NCBI GenBank assembly: GCA_048938105.1
Contig: JBHLMN010000026.1
Coordinates: forward strand, 1-64,000
Reading direction: 5' to 3'
DNA: 64,000 nt
From: Promethearchaeota archaeon
GTDB lineage: Archaea > Asgardarchaeota > Heimdallarchaeia > Hodarchaeales > Hodarchaeaceae
Under the pieces are notes generated by a model that saw only the letters and a program-made list of their open reading frames with translations, had not been told where the DNA came from and ran no database searches. Of this stretch, positions 1 through 4,712 are shown piece after piece (the stretch's first letter is position 1; every line of letters starts with the position of its first letter). The translations under genes and the position numbers were made by a program.

Positions 1-2
1 AC

Positions 3-356
3 AGGCTGAGAGACTTTGCAGCAGCTAATAACTATCCTGTAATTAAAGAAATCAAAGAAATAGGGTCAGCATTGAATAGTAGGAGAAAAAAACTACTGGA
101 AGTATTACAAAATCCGCAAATGGCACTCATCATTTCAGAACATACAGATAGGTTGACACGCTTCGGTTATGATTATCTTGAAACCGAGTTACGGGCTACT
201 GGGTGAAAAATTCTCATATTGATTGAAGAGGAATGTACAGATGACCTGGTACAAGACATGTGGGATGTTTTGACTTCTTTTTGTGGCCAGTTGTATGGCC
301 GACGATCTGCACGCCTCCGTGCGAGTCGAGCAATGAAGGCGGTAGAGAAATGCTAA
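3..356 (+). pseudogene. tnpA: IS607 serine recombinase TnpA, 5'-truncated by the window edge, with an in-frame TGA at 204-206
   Basis: Frame 3 reads RLRDFAAANNYPVIKEIKEIGSALNSRRKKL...SEHTDRLTRFGYDYLE...ATG*KILI...DDLVQDMWDVLTSFCGQLYGRRS. These are the IS607 resolvase motifs E-x-GS, DRLTRFG and DLVxD...F..xLYGxRS. Not in the ORF track. Confidence 0.88.
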
Positions 357-1600
357 TAAGACGAGGGTACAAATACGCGCTACGAGTTAACAATAAAGAA
401 CGCACTTTACTCAATCAATGTGCTGGTACTTCTCGTTTTAGCTGGAATTGGGGTTTAGCTCAACGGTTGGAACAATATAAACACAACACTGGTAGTGACC
501 GGTTTACTGATGCCATGAAACAACATAAAGAGATCAACCGTTTGAAAAAGACGACTTTTAACTGGATGTACAACTATAGTAAATGCATTCCCCAAGAGGC
601 ATTACGTGATCTGGACCAGGCGTTTAAAAATTTTGTCAATGGGCGGAAAAAAGGAAGAAAAGTTGGTTTTCCTCAATTCAAGAAAAAAAACAAAAGTAAA
701 GACAGCTTTCGGTTGACTGGGGTAATTCGGTTCTATCCAAAGCTGAAACTAATCCGTTTACCTCGATTAGGCAAATTGCGACTAGAGGAAAGGCCAGCCA
801 TTCCTGTTAATGGGCGGATTTTGAATGTGACTGTTTCTCGTACCGCTGATAGGTGGTATGTCTCAGCTACGGTAGAAGAGACTCGGCCTGATCCGCACCC
901 AATTCAAGGAGAAATCTTAGGCCTAGATGCGGGTCTATCGCGGTTTGGGGTCCTCTCCAATGGGATGCCACTTCCTACCCCCAAATTCCTTTTGCGTCGG
1001 TTAAAAAAGCTTCGGCGGCTATCAAAAGCTCATTCACGAAAAAAATATGGCTCGAAGAACCGTCAAAAATCAGCCCTTAAATTAGCTCGGTTTTACAAAC
1101 GGATTACCGATTCTCGACACGATTTTTTACATAAAATTTCATTAACACTAGCTAAAAACCACAGCGTGTTAATAGTAGAGGATTTGCATGTAAAAGGTCT
1201 ATCGATGAATAAAAAGCAATCCAAATATTGGCAGGATTTGGCTCATGGCGAGTTTCAGCGCCTACTTCAGTATAAAACCTCCTGGTATGGTTCACAACTT
1301 GTCATTGTTAATCGTTTCTTTCCCTCGTCTAAGCTTTGTTCCAATTGTTTATGCTATCACACTGGTTTGAAGCTTAAAGATAGAACATACGTGTGCCCAT
1401 TATGTGGCCTTAGAATTGATCGTGATTTGAATGCTGCTCGTAATTTGGTCAATTACTATCATTGGTATGGTCCCATTATTCAGACGTTATTCAATCCCTC
1501 TGATCATTTAGTCGCCGTGAGTTCCTCGGAGACTTTAAACGCTTGTGGAGAATCGGTAAGACCTAGTGCTTCTGGGCCCGACTTTATGAATCAGGAATGA
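350..1600 (+). CDS. tnpB: RNA-guided endonuclease TnpB (IS607-associated); probable start ATG 350
   Basis: N-terminal GYKYAL...R-x-x-WN; RuvC-I GLDAG, RuvC-II IVEDL, Zn finger CSNC/CPLC, RuvC-III DRDLNAARN. The D-E-D triad is intact. Confidence 0.95.
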   Translation: MLIRRGYKYALRVNNKERTLLNQCAGTSRFSWNWGLAQRLEQYKHNTGSDRFTDAMKQHKEINRLKKTTFNWMYNYSKCIPQEALRDLDQAFKNFVNGRKKGRKVGFPQFKKKNKSKDSFRLTGVIRFYPKLKLIRLPRLGKLRLEERPAIPVNGRILNVTVSRTADRWYVSATVEETRPDPHPIQGEILGLDAGLSRFGVLSNGMPLPTPKFLLRRLKKLRRLSKAHSRKKYGSKNRQKSALKLARFYKRITDSRHDFLHKISLTLAKNHSVLIVEDLHVKGLSMNKKQSKYWQDLAHGEFQRLLQYKTSWYGSQLVIVNRFFPSSKLCSNCLCYHTGLKLKDRTYVCPLCGLRIDRDLNAARNLVNYYHWYGPIIQTLFNPSDHLVAVSSSETLNACGESVRPSASGPDFMNQE

Positions 1601-1645
1601 TCTGTTTTTATTGTAAGCAATAAAAGCATAGGTATCAAGGAACGG
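1482..1645 (+). ncRNA. TnpB omegaRNA/right-end scaffold, copy 1 (guide from 1646: TTTTATAATTATTAAATGG...)
   Basis: Overlaps the tnpB 3' end. Hairpins CCTAG/CTGGG (1562-1576) and TGTTTTTATTG-TAAG-CAATAAAAGCA (1603-1628). GTTCCT (1521-26) is complementary to terminal AGGAAC (1638-43), a pseudoknot-like pairing. The 5' end of the RNA is uncertain. Confidence 0.8.
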
Positions 1646-1700
1646 TTTTATAATTATTAAATGGAGATGAGCTTAAAGAATATGGAGAGGTACAAACCAA

Positions 1701-2171
1701 TTAATCTTCGTATAAGAACCATCCAATTAACTTGAAATAATTGTTAAGATCATTCAATATTGCCTGATTGTTTGAAAAGAATACCAAGTGGCCTCCACAT
1801 TTTGCCTTGCAGTCAGATGAACCGAATTTTTGAATGATTTCTGTATTGTGGAAATTTTGCAGAAATCCTTGAAGAGCCGAACATTCTGTTGTTCCAGTTA
1901 TCGTTGTATAATATGCATTGATCATTTTGGTGTCTGGATGGGATGTTATATAATCAATGTGCCAAAAAGTTTTCTTTTGCCTTTTAAAATGACGTGTTAA
2001 CCGTTTTTCTAAAGATGTTGAAGTTTTTCCTCTAGCTGATCCGAAATAAAGATAAAAACCTGTCCTCAACAGCCAGTTAAATCTATTAATGTCTATTAAA
2101 AATGAACAAATTATCTCAAAAACTAAAACATAAACCCCTTGGGAGTTTTTCCGCTGAATTCCGCCTCTCAA
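1701..2171 (-). CDS. GIY-YIG nuclease family protein (DUF123/Uri-like)
   Basis: GVYVL...GFYLYFGSA...R-x-x-RH...FWHIDY...E...FGSSDC-x-x-x-C-x-x-HL. Confidence 0.88.
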   Translation of the reverse strand: MRGGIQRKNSQGVYVLVFEIICSFLIDINRFNWLLRTGFYLYFGSARGKTSTSLEKRLTRHFKRQKKTFWHIDYITSHPDTKMINAYYTTITGTTECSALQGFLQNFHNTEIIQKFGSSDCKAKCGGHLVFFSNNQAILNDLNNYFKLIGWFLYED

Positions 2172-2203
2172 TTTCAGACATCTTTTTTACGGGAATGAAG
2201 AGG

Positions 2204-2220
2204 TTATATAAAGCTTTTCT
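2204..2220 (-). promoter_or_regulatory. Putative BRE + TATA box (AGAAAAGC-TTTATATAA on minus strand) upstream of the GIY-YIG gene; core TTATATAA is palindromic
   Basis: Purine-rich BRE followed by a TATA box 33-40 nt upstream of the start at 2171. Confidence 0.5.
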
Positions 2221-2284
2221 GATTCAGAATTGAAATCGTGACAATTAAGGGTTGGTGAGCTGTATAATAATTCATGTGCTTATA

Positions 2285-2448
2285 AGACGTTATTCAATCC
2301 ATCTGATAATTTAGTCGCCGTGAGTTCCTCGGAGACTTTAAACGCTTGTGGAGAATCGGTAAGACCTAGTGTTTCTAGGCCCGACTTTATGAATCAGGAA
2401 TGATCTGCTTTTATTGTAAGCAATAAAAGCATAGGTATCAAGGAACGG
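2285..2448 (+). ncRNA. Stand-alone second copy of the TnpB omegaRNA/IS607 right end (MITE-like; left boundary uncertain, GG at 2202-03 or 2254-55)
   Basis: 159/164 nt identical to 1482-1645. Ends at GGAACGG with a different downstream guide (TTATATATGATAGATAGG). No tnpB upstream of this copy. Confidence 0.82.
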
Positions 2449-2454
2449 TTATAT

Positions 2455-3309
2455 ATGATAGATAGGATTCAGAAAATCCAAGGTTGGAAAATTCATCATC
2501 AAGAGCAGTTACTGTATCGGGCTAAGGTTGGTTCACCCTCAATTCGTTTGAAGTTCTTTCACCATCCGAATTATCGCCAATTCGTGCGTGTTGATAAGTT
2601 TCCTTCACATTGTAAAGTTAAAAGAAAAGGAATTAACACATTTTTTCTTTTTCAACAGAAAGTTCATACTAGAGGGACAATTTCTTTAGACAGAGTTATC
2701 ACTGTATTTCCTGAACCTTCCCTTCTTAACCTAGAAAATGATTGGGGAAAAATATCAGAAATTCCTACAAGGTTGAAATCAAAATATCACGAGAGTTCGA
2801 AATTTTGGCCAATAAAATCACCTGCTATACTCAACACGTCTGAAGATGAGTTATTTTCAACAGATGATCTTTCCTCATGGGTGAAAGCGACTTTTCAATA
2901 TGTAAGAACAAAAATTAAACATCGTGAAAGACAGGATGAAAGATTAGGAGCTTATCAGGCCTTATTGACCGAGATTGGTGATTGTGATGAATTCACAGAT
3001 CTTTTCATAACACTTGCTCGGGTACGTGGTATTCCTTGTAGACGTTTGACTGGTTATTTTATTCAGAAACAAGGCAAAAAAGTTGAAGCACACGCATGGG
3101 GGGAGATATTCTCTCCCAAAATGCGCTGGATAACAGTTGATGCCGCATTAAACAACTTAGGAAACCATACTATCAATTATGTTATTCAAAAGATTGAACA
3201 ATTCAATCCTGCTTTATCTGATTACCAGATTAAAACGAAACATTCTACTGTTGTCCAATATGAATGGGACCGACCGAAACCAAGCGTCTCCCCTGTTTAT
3301 ACACCTTGA
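2455..3309 (+). CDS. Transglutaminase-like cysteine protease domain protein
   Basis: GDCDEFTDLFITLARVRGIPCR...HAWGE...WITVD gives a Cys-His-Asp triad. Confidence 0.88.
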   Translation: MIDRIQKIQGWKIHHQEQLLYRAKVGSPSIRLKFFHHPNYRQFVRVDKFPSHCKVKRKGINTFFLFQQKVHTRGTISLDRVITVFPEPSLLNLENDWGKISEIPTRLKSKYHESSKFWPIKSPAILNTSEDELFSTDDLSSWVKATFQYVRTKIKHRERQDERLGAYQALLTEIGDCDEFTDLFITLARVRGIPCRRLTGYFIQKQGKKVEAHAWGEIFSPKMRWITVDAALNNLGNHTINYVIQKIEQFNPALSDYQIKTKHSTVVQYEWDRPKPSVSPVYTP

Positions 3310-3341
3310 AATATCGTCAAAACTCATAAGTTTAAAAATCA

Positions 3342-4712
3342 CTATAGTGAATTTGAACATTTCAAAAATTTTCCTTTGTTTTGGGGCGCAACAAAAGCTC
3401 CATCCTCACAAAGGACGTTTCCTCGAAGTATGGTCATAATAGGCCATCCCCCAACCTTCAAGCTTGTATAAGGGTTCCAATCGATGGAATAATGAAGAGT
3501 TTCTGATGTAATTATTTTTTCAATTTTTGGGTCAAATATGACAATATCAGCATCTGTTCCGACCATAAGACTCCCCTTTTGAGGAAAAAGACCAAATATC
3601 TGAGCTGGTTTAGTTGACATCAAAGATACCAGCTGAGGGTAACTTAATTTCTGTTTATTAATCAAAAAGTCGTGCATAAGAGGCAAAGAGGTTTCAATTC
3701 CTGGGATTCCATTTAAGACTTGATGAAAAGGTAAGCTGCCATTTCCTTTACTCTCGCGTGAAAATTCGCAATGATCAGTAACAATCTGATCAATTGTCCT
3801 ATCTTCTATTCGTTTCATTAATGCTTGTTGATCTTTGGCATGACGAAGAGGTGGTGACATCAAATTCAGATATCCTTCTGAACCCTTGTATTCTCTTTCA
3901 TTATACAGTAAGTAGTGAGGACAAGTCTCCCCTGTGACCTTCATCCCCTGTTGTTTGGCTTGGTATAATAAGTCACTTCCTCCTTTTGTAGTAAGATGAG
4001 CTAGATGAAGCTTAACCCCTGTTTTCTTGGCAAAAAATAATACTCTTTGAATAGCCTCTTCCTCTACAATATGAGGGCGTGAATGGGCATGAAAAATAGG
4101 ATCAGTTTTTCCTGCCTGAATAAGGTCATTTCTATAATTAATAATCAAGATATCATTTTCACAGTGACCCATAACCCTCCCTCGACATTTTCTAACTTCA
4201 CGAAACAACACTAATAATTCTGCATCATTAAGGTTAAGATTTCGCCAGCTATAGGTTGTGAAAAATTTAAAACTTGCTATTCCCTCAGAAACAAGAGTTG
4301 GGATCTCATCTAAAAATTGAGTGTCAGTTTTTGAGACATGGAGACTATAGTCAATAGCTACCTGTGAATCTGCATCCTTTTTACGCTCGTAAAAGCTTTT
4401 TAAAGGAGATTCCCCTCTTGTCTGATCAGCAAAATCAATTATAGTTGTCACTCCACCACAGGCAGCAGCTTTTGTACCAGAGGCAAAGGTATCAGTTGAG
4501 ATAGTCTTCCCTAAATCTTGTAACTGAAAATGAACATGAGAATCAACTATACCAGGCAAAACCAATTTTTTATTAGCATCAATGATTTTCTCTGCTTGAA
4601 AGTTCTTATCACCTAGGAAAATAGCTTTAATTTTACCTTCCGCAATAGCTAGGTTTGCCTGATAGCATCTATTGCTGTCTACAAGGGTTCCATTCTTAAT
4701 AATAAGATCCAC
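3342..4712 (-). CDS. hydA: Dihydropyrimidinase / D-hydantoinase (start probably GTG 4712)
   Basis: DLIIKNG, PGIVDSHVH, GGVTTIIDF, SFKFF (carbamylated Lys), HCEN, ETCPHYL, TDHC, NGIPGIE. Confidence 0.88.
   Translation of the reverse strand: MDLIIKNGTLVDSNRCYQANLAIAEGKIKAIFLGDKNFQAEKIIDANKKLVLPGIVDSHVHFQLQDLGKTISTDTFASGTKAAACGGVTTIIDFADQTRGESPLKSFYERKKDADSQVAIDYSLHVSKTDTQFLDEIPTLVSEGIASFKFFTTYSWRNLNLNDAELLVLFREVRKCRGRVMGHCENDILIINYRNDLIQAGKTDPIFHAHSRPHIVEEEAIQRVLFFAKKTGVKLHLAHLTTKGGSDLLYQAKQQGMKVTGETCPHYLLYNEREYKGSEGYLNLMSPPLRHAKDQQALMKRIEDRTIDQIVTDHCEFSRESKGNGSLPFHQVLNGIPGIETSLPLMHDFLINKQKLSYPQLVSLMSTKPAQIFGLFPQKGSLMVGTDADIVIFDPKIEKIITSETLHYSIDWNPYTSLKVGGWPIMTILRGNVLCEDGAFVAPQNKGKFLKCSNSL

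What the first reader, a model, noticed from the sequence alone, without database searches (positions are those of the whole stretch)
1482..2470. One intact TnpB with two omegaRNA scaffolds carrying different guides; differences between the copies preserve RNA structure
Seen: 2285-2448 repeats the tnpB 3' end/right end (1482-1645) with 5 substitutions, ends at the same GGAACGG, and is followed by a different sequence (guide 1 TTTTATAATTATTAAATGG, guide 2 TTATATATGATAGATAGG). Two substitutions turn G-U wobbles into Watson-Crick pairs: CCTAG/CTGGG becomes CCTAG/CTAGG, and TGTTTTTATTG becomes TGCTTTTATTG against CAATAAAAGCA. One substitution is in a hairpin loop and two are in the 5'-most 24 nt. 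The GTTCCT/AGGAAC pairing is unchanged. Established: TnpB uses an RNA from the element's right end, with the flank as guide. Inference: the orphan copy is a trans-acting second guide, either a non-autonomous IS607 borrowing TnpB or the start of a guide repertoire, in an Asgard-like genome.
Basis: partly seen in the sequence, partly recalled or inferred. Interest (0 to 1): 0.82.

Follow-up and report, generated by a model that had tools for sequence, protein, structure and literature searches.

The report
Gene-less IS607 remnant keeping guide-RNA scaffold
The second "orphan" guide-RNA scaffold is the right end of a 200-base, gene-less deletion derivative of the same IS607-type insertion sequence that lies next to it, which is a known kind of element, and whether it really supplies TnpB with a second guide remains untested.

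Summary
Window 1482-1645 and 2285-2448 are 164-nt copies with 5 substitutions. Both end in GGAACGG and have different flanks.

The orphan copy is not free-standing. The 36 nt just upstream of it (2249-2284) are the left end of the same IS607-family element. So 2249-2448 is a 200-nt internal-deletion derivative made of 36 nt of left end plus 164 nt of right end. A congeneric genome has precise empty sites for this element and for the neighbouring full copy. The full copy's left end lies on another contig.

The scaffold structure, including a pseudoknot, is supported by covariation in 15 relatives. The copy-to-copy substitutions are inherited variants shared with other copies, so they are not evidence of selection on the orphan.

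TnpB is intact. Both assembled tnpA copies share an in-frame TGA.

Across the genus, of 66 scaffold hits, 17 were classed with a full tnpB and 40 with none (rough counts, with a few known misclassifications). Several protein-less families carry a TATA-like box placed to start transcription near the scaffold's first base.

Standalone omegaRNAs and omegaRNA-bearing PATEs are already described, so this is a new member of a known kind. The same scan had already noted other orphan scaffolds and the sister copy elsewhere in this genome.

Expression, TnpB loading and read support could not be tested.

The parts
3..356 (+). tnpA (serine recombinase). Its 5' part is cut off by the contig start. It is broken by an in-frame TGA at 204-206.
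   Evidence: Pfam Resolvase matches 3-203 at 23.0 bits against a cutoff of 23.3 for this fragment. The same TGA is present in the C14 copy, which also has a 1-nt indel. A 49%-identical homologue on C64 has Arg at that position.
350..1600 (+). tnpB, 416 aa, intact RNA-guided nuclease gene of the full-length copy
   Evidence: Pfam HTH_OrfB_IS605, OrfB_IS605 and Cas12f1-like_TNB all match. The match to ISDra2 TnpB structures has E 1e-55, with the LDAG, VEDL and DRDLNAA motifs aligned to the corresponding motifs of the top PDB hit (9yyg), which I read as the RuvC acidic motifs. There are no internal stops.
1482..1645 (+). Copy 1 of the 164-nt repeat: tnpB 3' end plus the right end. The structured omegaRNA scaffold core is 1511-1645, and the crossover GG is 1644-1645.
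   Evidence: Searches show the repeat. The covariance model scores it 159 bits.
1646..1665 (+). Guide 1 (flank of the full copy). Its length is assumed to be about 16-20 nt.
   Evidence: Every right-end copy is followed by a different flank. The only full match in the genome is the site itself.
1701..2171 (-). DUF123 (GIY-YIG-like) host gene lying between the two insertions. It is not cargo.
   Evidence: Pfam DUF123 matches at E 7e-21. Its adjacency to the transglutaminase-like gene is conserved in at least 5 congeneric genomes that lack both insertions.
2249..2284 (+). 36-nt left end of the deletion derivative. It begins with the crossover GG (2249-2250) and contains TATA-like octamers at 2263-2270 and, spanning the deletion junction, at 2280-2287.
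   Evidence: The same 36-38 nt, followed there by the tnpA leader and start codon, occur at six other places in the genome, each with a different upstream flank.
2285..2448 (+). Copy 2 of the repeat: the 164-nt right-end part of the derivative. The scaffold core is 2314-2448, and the crossover GG is 2447-2448.
   Evidence: Searches show the repeat. It has the highest covariance-model score in the genus, 160.9 bits. Its last 76-77 nt (through the 3' end) are 100% identical to the right ends on C38, C46 and C43.
2449..2468 (+). Guide 2 (flank of the derivative). It overlaps the ATG (2455) of the downstream gene.
2455..3309 (+). Transglutaminase-like host gene. The insertion moves its native upstream region 198 nt further away.
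   Evidence: Pfam Transglut_core matches at E 9e-19. The empty site in G003 keeps the same ATG context.

Best explanation
Shown. Window 2249-2448 is a 200-nt, gene-less internal-deletion derivative of a multicopy IS607-family element (serine-recombinase tnpA plus tnpB). It consists of 36 nt of left end joined to the last 164 nt of the right end, which contain the whole 135-nt TnpB guide-RNA scaffold. It is a separate insertion at a GG in the DUF123/transglutaminase intergenic region. A full-length copy of a different haplotype is inserted 603 nt upstream on the same strand.

Inferred. The derivative is transcribed either from the left-end TATA-like box that the deletion placed about 26 nt upstream of the scaffold, or by read-through from the host promoter. 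The resulting RNA, scaffold plus flank-derived guide, would be loaded by TnpB made from the full copies. If the element is excised, the restored empty site carries AAGG in front of the guide instead of the element's own ACGG. TnpB would cut it, and repair from a sister chromosome would put the element back. This is the homing and retention mechanism demonstrated for IS605 and IS607 elements. On this reading the second scaffold is a parasite of TnpB, not a host-serving second guide.
For: Left end: 2249-2284 matches six left ends of the element, each followed there by the tnpA leader.

Empty sites: G003:C94 has DUF123 and the transglutaminase-like gene abutting, with one GG-containing site where the derivative sits. 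It also has the C56 flank and the C59 flank contiguous where the full copy sits.

Scaffold: 35 pairs including the pseudoknot are 92.3% paired across 15 sequences, against 38-49% for slid controls, and 9 pairs show changes on both sides. The derivative scores highest with the model.

Compatible nuclease in the same genome: two assembled tnpB copies at 99-100% identity with intact catalytic motifs.

TAM logic: position -3 before the left end is A in 6 of 7 left-end flanks in this genome (G in the seventh), and by my reading in 4 of 5 protein-less relatives, but it is C in the right end. CboTnpB makes the same -3 discrimination, TGGG against TCGG (10.1101/2023.11.20.567912).

Genus context: of 66 scaffold hits, 17 were classed with a full tnpB and 40 with none (rough automatic classes; for the loci held). 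Several protein-less families have TATA-like octamers starting 30-31 nt (two families) or 50-51 nt (one family) before the scaffold, and this element has them at -34 and -51, whereas no such octamer was seen in the 60 nt upstream of the tnpB-linked scaffolds examined.

Literature: standalone omegaRNAs work in trans with compatible effectors (PMC10691335). PATEs carry omegaRNAs that need TnpB in trans (PMC10055086).
Against: There is no expression, loading or cleavage evidence, and read data could not be obtained.

The exact derivative is single-copy in this genome and was not found in metagenome contigs. It may therefore have arisen by deletion in place and never moved.

Its left end is only 36 nt. 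The CboIStron mini-element used 60-bp ends containing several TnpA sites, so it may not be mobilisable, and without excision TnpB homing has nothing to act on.

Both assembled tnpA copies carry the same in-frame TGA.

The TATA-like motifs could be TnpA binding sites, or chance in AT-rich DNA, and need not be promoters.

The protein-less family in G013/G002 shows both compatible changes and mismatches in one stem, so some orphan scaffolds are decaying.
Confidence: 0.55

Rival explanations
1. Inert relic. A full-length copy once sat at 2249-2448 and lost about 1.7 kb by an internal deletion in place. The scaffold survives only because the deletion is recent, and it is neither mobilised nor used by TnpB.
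For: It is single-copy in the genome and absent from metagenome contigs. The left end is only 36 nt (compare the 60-bp minimal ends). tnpA is broken in both assembled copies. A second derivative on C14 keeps 337 nt of right end and only a scrap of left end, which shows that random internal deletions do occur. A closed congeneric genome holds one orphan scaffold with a partly deleted terminal hairpin and no matching TnpB.
Against: The right breakpoint lies only 29 nt before the first stem, and the left breakpoint keeps a TATA-like octamer at promoter distance. Protein-less scaffold-bearing elements are multicopy at distinct loci in relatives, for example four loci in G005 and about a dozen in G013. 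The scaffold is undamaged.
Confidence: 0.33
2. Host-serving or proto-CRISPR guide repertoire. The duplicated scaffold is the first step of an array that gives one TnpB several guides against other targets.
For: There are two same-strand scaffolds 803 nt apart with different guides. In G002:C96 two scaffolds lie 39 nt apart.
Against: Copy 2 has its own transposon left end and an empty site in a relative, so it is an independent insertion and not a duplication of copy 1. The two haplotypes differ, and copy 2 matches other copies of the family instead. Neither guide matches any other place in the genome. The G002 tandem is a nested insertion of one element into another.
Confidence: 0.04
3. Assembly artefact. 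The repeat, or the left-end/right-end junction, was created by mis-joining copies of a multicopy element.
For: The contig begins inside the element. Twelve contig ends stop inside copies of it, so the assembler had difficulty with this repeat.
Against: The junction has essentially no shared sequence, so a graph assembler has no path across it without reads supporting it. Both flanks of the derivative are contiguous in G003. The five differences separate the two copies.
Confidence: 0.04
4. Composite transposon. The full copy's left end and the derivative's right end together mobilise the DUF123 gene as cargo.
For: The two elements are in direct orientation and bracket a small nuclease-like gene.
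Against: DUF123 next to the transglutaminase-like gene is the ancestral arrangement in at least 5 congeners that lack the insertions. The 1646-2248 segment has no other copy in the genome.
Confidence: 0.02

Closest known systems
IS607-family elements with TnpB and omegaRNA (CboIStron / IS607 work, 10.1101/2023.11.20.567912)
   Same: It has a serine-recombinase tnpA upstream of and overlapping tnpB, a GG crossover dinucleotide at both ends, and no terminal inverted repeats or target duplication. The omegaRNA scaffold overlaps the tnpB 3' end and finishes in ...CGG. A G-rich TAM differs from the element's own end at position -3. A pseudoknot involves the last scaffold nucleotides.
   Different: The host is archaeal (Hodarchaeota-like). 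There is no group I intron. The likely TAM is A-G-G and not T-G-G-G. tnpA is broken by a shared TGA. The element under study is a 200-nt derivative that lacks both genes.
PATE-like non-autonomous IS200/IS605 elements carrying omegaRNAs (Geobacillus stearothermophilus; PMC10055086)
   Same: They are protein-less elements that keep the transposon ends and an omegaRNA, and must rely on TnpA and TnpB made elsewhere in the genome.
   Different: PATEs belong to the Y1-transposase, single-strand 'peel and paste' family with hairpin ends. This element derives from a serine-recombinase element. It is single-copy here and has a very short left end.
Standalone omegaRNAs of OMEGA systems (Altae-Tran et al. 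2021, as summarised in PMC10691335)
   Same: The scaffold has a flank-derived guide and no adjacent effector or transposase, and sits in a genome that also holds effector-containing loci. Such RNAs were shown to work in trans.
   Different: Trans activity is untested here. This case shows how the standalone unit arose, by internal deletion joining the left end to the scaffold, and places it in an Asgard archaeon.
ISDra2 TnpB-omegaRNA complex (PDB 8h1j, 8exa)
   Same: The protein aligns over its whole length at E 1e-55, and the LDAG, VEDL and DRDLNAA motifs align with the corresponding motifs of the closely related top hit 9yyg. The scaffold is about 135 nt with a pseudoknot next to the guide.
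   Different: ISDra2 is an IS200/IS605 element with a TTGAT TAM. Sequence identity is low, and the RNA sequences are unrelated.

Membership tests
IS607-family insertion sequence (parent element) | Serine-recombinase TnpA encoded upstream of tnpB | tested here: met
   There is a Resolvase-domain match on 3-203. The YARVSS-type motif appears in the C14 copy, and a MerR-like N-terminus follows the left end on C56. The gene is a pseudogene in both assembled copies, with TGA at 204-206.
IS607-family insertion sequence (parent element) | TnpB with RuvC D-E-D and a zinc ribbon | tested here: met
   Three Pfam TnpB domains match. The alignment to the top PDB hit shows the putative catalytic motifs conserved.
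IS607-family insertion sequence (parent element) | GG crossover dinucleotide at both boundaries, with no inverted repeats and no target-site duplication | tested here: met
   All 7 left ends start with GG and all 10 right ends finish with GG. The empty sites in G003 carry a single G-run. The repeat finder found no terminal inverted repeat.
MITE / non-autonomous deletion derivative | Both ends of the parent element with no coding capacity | tested here: met
   36 nt of left end plus 164 nt of right end. Only a 41-codon tnpB tail remains.
MITE / non-autonomous deletion derivative | Precise presence/absence polymorphism against a related genome | tested here: met
   The G003:C94 empty site.
MITE / non-autonomous deletion derivative | Amplified to multiple copies | tested here: not met
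   The left-end/right-end junction occurs once in the genome and not at all in metagenome contigs. Related protein-less families in congeners are multicopy. It is therefore filed as a solo deletion derivative and not as a MITE family.
MITE / non-autonomous deletion derivative | Can be mobilised in trans by the parent transposase | not testable with these tools
   This needs an excision assay. The 36-nt left end is shorter than the 60-bp minimal ends used for CboIStron.
Standalone (trans-acting) omegaRNA | Conserved scaffold structure ending at the element boundary, followed by a variable flank | tested here: met
   Covariation, the covariance model and the flanks.
Standalone (trans-acting) omegaRNA | Compatible effector encoded elsewhere in the same genome | tested here: met
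   Intact tnpB at 350-1597 and at C14:392340-393587, whose own scaffolds are 97-99% identical to the orphan.
Standalone (trans-acting) omegaRNA | Transcribed and loaded by the effector | not tested
Only promoter-like geometry is available.
CRISPR-like guide array | Regular repeat-spacer units processed from one transcript, with spacers matching foreign DNA | tested here: not met
   There are two units 803 nt apart, separated by a host gene on the other strand. The guides equal their own flanks only.

The most novel reading that the evidence does not exclude
In this Asgard genus, promoter-plus-scaffold units without any gene may form a class of 'guide-only' selfish elements. They would arise repeatedly by deletions that fuse a left-end or internal TATA box at about -30 to the first base of the TnpB scaffold. 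They appear to outnumber tnpB genes about two to one, and they would survive by using TnpB made elsewhere to re-install themselves. The window's 200-nt element would be a freshly made example, and nested cases such as G002:C96 would show how closely spaced multi-guide loci can arise.
Probability: 0.25. Interest if true: 0.55.

Novelty: new member of a known kind. Interest (0 to 1): 0.3.

Why it matters
This case shows, base by base, how a standalone TnpB guide cassette can be made from an IS607-type element: one internal deletion keeps the crossover end, a TATA-like box and the complete scaffold. It also places such cassettes in Asgard archaea, where they appear to outnumber their nuclease genes. 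That bears on whether guide RNAs of transposon nucleases are themselves selfish units. It also gives a compact natural scaffold, guide and TAM set (A-G-G against C-G-G) that could be tested with the adjacent intact TnpB. The concept itself is already published, both as standalone omegaRNAs and as PATEs with omegaRNAs.

Tried and rejected
Rfam search of 1-4000 at permissive threshold found no relevant family, only a chance miRNA hit.

Whole-repeat MFE folding gave weak z-scores of -0.9 and -1.5, so the structure claim rests on comparative data.

There was therefore no read-level check of the assembly and no RNA evidence, and read laying was not used.

Metagenome scans: the exact deletion junction was not found. 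The right-end terminus found only one further full-length relative.

Guides: a search for second genomic targets of guide 1 and guide 2 gave only partial AT-rich matches, which I take to be chance.

Composite transposon or cargo reading of DUF123: rejected because synteny is conserved in congeners.

Selection on orphans only: alignment of 12 protein-less copies from G013/G002 plus 2 linked copies showed no compensatory double changes, and showed both compatible and disruptive single changes. This is uninformative.

The automatic linked/orphan classification mislabels a few cases: the window derivative, the contig-edge copies on C64/C50, and the duplicated C39 locus. The counts are therefore given as approximate.

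The genome-contig scan with TnpB gave a taxonomic anchor but no close full-length element with tnpA.
Full report
OBSERVATION. The window is the first 64 kb of contig C59 of a 5.85-Mb, 65-contig genome. Positions 1482-1645 and 2285-2448 are 164-nt direct repeats with five substitutions, at 1498/2301, 1505/2308, 1569/2372, 1574/2377 and 1605/2408. Both copies end in GGAACGG and are followed by unrelated sequence. Copy 1 overlaps the last 119 nt of an intact 416-aa tnpB (350-1600). That protein carries the three Pfam TnpB domains, matches the ISDra2 TnpB structures (8h1j, 8bf8/8exa) at E 1e-55, and in the alignment shown for the top PDB hit (9yyg, E 1e-62) the LDAG, VEDL and DRDLNAA motifs align. 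Two convert U.G to Watson-Crick pairs in two hairpins that appear in both MFE folds. One lies in a hairpin loop, and two lie upstream of the structured part.

WHAT COPY 2 IS. A blastn of the 639 nt between the copies against the whole genome showed that its last 36-38 nt recur at six other places: C11, C5, C37, C56, C41 and C54. At each of those places the shared sequence begins with GG after an unrelated flank. It then continues into an AT-rich leader and the start of a MerR-like/serine-recombinase tnpA. That sequence is therefore the left end of the element. In the window it occupies 2249-2284 and is joined directly to the last 164 nt of the right end. So 2249-2448 is a 200-nt internal-deletion derivative with both crossover GGs and no gene; only a 41-codon tnpB tail remains. 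A congeneric genome, G003 contig C94, has the DUF123 gene and the transglutaminase-like gene directly abutting, with a single G-run where the derivative sits. This confirms the boundaries and, through conserved synteny, confirms that the two flanks really belong together. The deletion junction shares essentially no sequence between its two parents, so a graph assembler could not have produced it without supporting reads.

THE FULL COPY. The contig starts inside tnpA. In G003 the sequence that flanks the left end on C56 is contiguous with the sequence that follows 1645 in the window. The full copy therefore spans the C56/C59 gap and is also an insertion relative to G003. Genome-wide there are eight right ends at 94% identity or better, each with its own flank. 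There are also six unpaired left ends and six unpaired right ends at contig edges, consistent with about six full-type copies, the derivative, and a second derivative on C14 that keeps 337 nt of right end. DUF123 next to the transglutaminase-like gene is the arrangement in at least five congeners. DUF123 is therefore a host gene, not cargo.

RNA STRUCTURE AND THE FIVE SUBSTITUTIONS. Fifteen right ends from six genomes (76-100% identical) were aligned. Four helices plus a pseudoknot between the first hairpin loop (GUUCC) and the last scaffold bases (GGAAC) are paired in 92.3% of cells. Partners slid by 1-3 columns give 38-49%. Nine pairs show changes on both sides, and no shuffle reached the observed covariation score. 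Across 50 distinct scaffolds, the pseudoknot is perfect over 6 bp in 20. It occurs mainly in two co-varying forms, with a mismatch at the fifth pair in a sizeable minority. The two stem substitutions fall on pairs that vary compatibly in relatives: U-A/U-G, and C-G/U-G/U-A.

They do not show selection on the orphan, for three reasons. First, over the last 76-77 nt of the element the derivative is 100% identical to the right ends on C38, C46 and C43. Second, the T at 1605 is unique to copy 1 among eight copies. Third, two compatible transitions out of two in stems is expected about one time in four by my own estimate. The derivative therefore descends from a different sub-lineage of the family than its neighbour.

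TAM AND SELF/NON-SELF. The base at -3 before the left-end GG is A in six and G in one of the seven left-end flanks in this genome. By my reading it is A in four of five protein-less relatives. The right end has C there (A-C-G-G). For the IS607-family CboTnpB, the TAM TGGG is distinguished from the element's own TCGG at exactly this position (10.1101/2023.11.20.567912). The derivative's restored empty site would read A-A-G-G followed by guide 2, which is a plausible target. Neither guide has any other full match in the genome.

STATE OF THE PROTEINS. tnpB is intact in both assembled copies, C59 and C14, which are 99% identical. tnpA carries the same in-frame TGA (204-206) in both, and the C14 copy also has a 1-nt indel. 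A 49%-identical homologue on C64 has Arg at that position and has a stop of its own. The two tnpA genes examined therefore both carry in-frame stops, although most copies of the tnpA region are unassembled.

GENUS CONTEXT. A covariance model of the scaffold found 66 strong hits in 12 of 21 congeneric genomes. Cross-referencing with TnpB matches gave 17 hits with a full tnpB, 5 with a partial one, 40 with none and 4 at contig edges. This is a rough classification with a few known errors. For 11 loci held with 1.5 kb of upstream sequence, the absence of TnpB was checked directly. Protein-less families occur at several distinct loci, four in G005 and about a dozen in G013. TATA-like octamers start at -30/-31 before the first stem in two such families and at -50/-51 in a third. 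In the window's derivative they start at -34 (2280-2287, created across the deletion junction) and at -51. None was seen in the 60 nt upstream of the tnpB-linked scaffolds examined. With the usual archaeal spacing (my own knowledge: box at about -30 to -23), transcription of the derivative would start near 2310, four bases before the scaffold. This is suggestive only. Families are few, non-coding DNA here is AT-rich, and TATA-containing motifs are TnpA binding sites in CboIStron ends.

MECHANISM AND RIVALS. The identity is well supported, at about 0.9 by my estimate. The most likely function is inferred from the IS605 and IS607 homing mechanism and from the published trans activity of standalone omegaRNAs. 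On that inference, the derivative's RNA is loaded by TnpB from the full copies and directs cutting of its own vacated site, which favours its retention. The main rival is an inert relic made by deletion in place. Supporting that rival are its single-copy state, the short left end, the broken tnpA, a second more ragged derivative in the same genome, and a decayed orphan scaffold in a closed congeneric genome that has no matching TnpB. A guide-array origin, mis-assembly and a composite transposon are each unlikely, for the reasons given under rivals.

COMPARISON AND NOVELTY. The parent meets the IS607 criteria tested. The derivative meets the criteria of a non-autonomous deletion derivative, except for amplification. 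It meets the sequence-level criteria of a standalone omegaRNA, but expression and loading are untested. Standalone omegaRNAs and omegaRNA-bearing PATEs are published. Earlier notes of this scan already recorded the sister copy, the second derivative and a PATE-type orphan scaffold elsewhere in this genome. The finding is a clear, well-resolved new member of a known kind. The genus-wide excess of scaffold-only loci and the promoter geometry are the parts worth following up.

NOT DONE. No structure prediction or complex prediction was needed for the claims made.

Noticed in passing
window 204-206 (and G000 C14, about 393730): Both assembled copies of the element's tnpA share an in-frame TGA where a homologue has Arg. 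The C14 copy also has a 1-nt indel. Either copies spread after the transposase died (mobilised in trans), or the stop is read through.
   Followed up: partly
window 2449-2457: The derivative's right end lies 6 nt before the ATG of the transglutaminase-like gene. The gene's native upstream region, including a TATA-like TTATATAAAG near 2204-2213, is pushed 198 nt away. Any host-promoter transcript must now run through the scaffold in the sense direction.
   Followed up: no
window 1-1645 with G000 C56:1-188: The window begins inside the insertion sequence. Twelve contig ends in this assembly stop inside copies of it (six left ends and six right ends). About 60-100 nt of tnpA between the C56 and C14/C59 pieces is unassembled.
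   Followed up: partly
G000 C14:86721-87057 (L004): A second deletion derivative of the same element keeps 337 nt of right end (the last 95 tnpB codons plus the scaffold). On the left it keeps only a roughly 15-nt internal scrap of the left end and lacks the terminal GG region.
   Followed up: partly
L060 (G002:C96:23250-25900): Two scaffolds lie 39 nt apart on one strand. A roughly 1.64-kb tnpB-bearing element has inserted at a GG inside a roughly 470-nt protein-less scaffold element, just upstream of that element's TATA-like box. This produces a closely spaced two-guide locus by nesting.
   Followed up: yes
L017/L061 (G009:C1:3642829-3642957): A closed 4.9-Mb congeneric genome has a single orphan scaffold with a partly deleted terminal hairpin. 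No TnpB of this clade was found at E <= 1e-5.
   Followed up: partly
L011/L013 (G000 C39:119076-119550): The 3' end of a 64%-identical tnpB, including the start of its scaffold, is present twice in tandem. Part of the locus reads as N in the copy held.
   Followed up: no
loci L064, L078, L033, L034, L028, L062-L073: Protein-less scaffold families in congeners carry TTTATAAA/TTTAAAAG-type octamers starting 30-31 nt or 50-51 nt before the first stem. No such octamer was seen in the 60 nt upstream of the tnpB-linked scaffolds examined.
   Followed up: partly
window 350-1597: The best PDB sequence match of this natural archaeal TnpB is an entry titled 'AI-designed RNA-guided nuclease' (9yyg, E 1e-62). 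It scores slightly better than ISDra2 TnpB.
   Followed up: no
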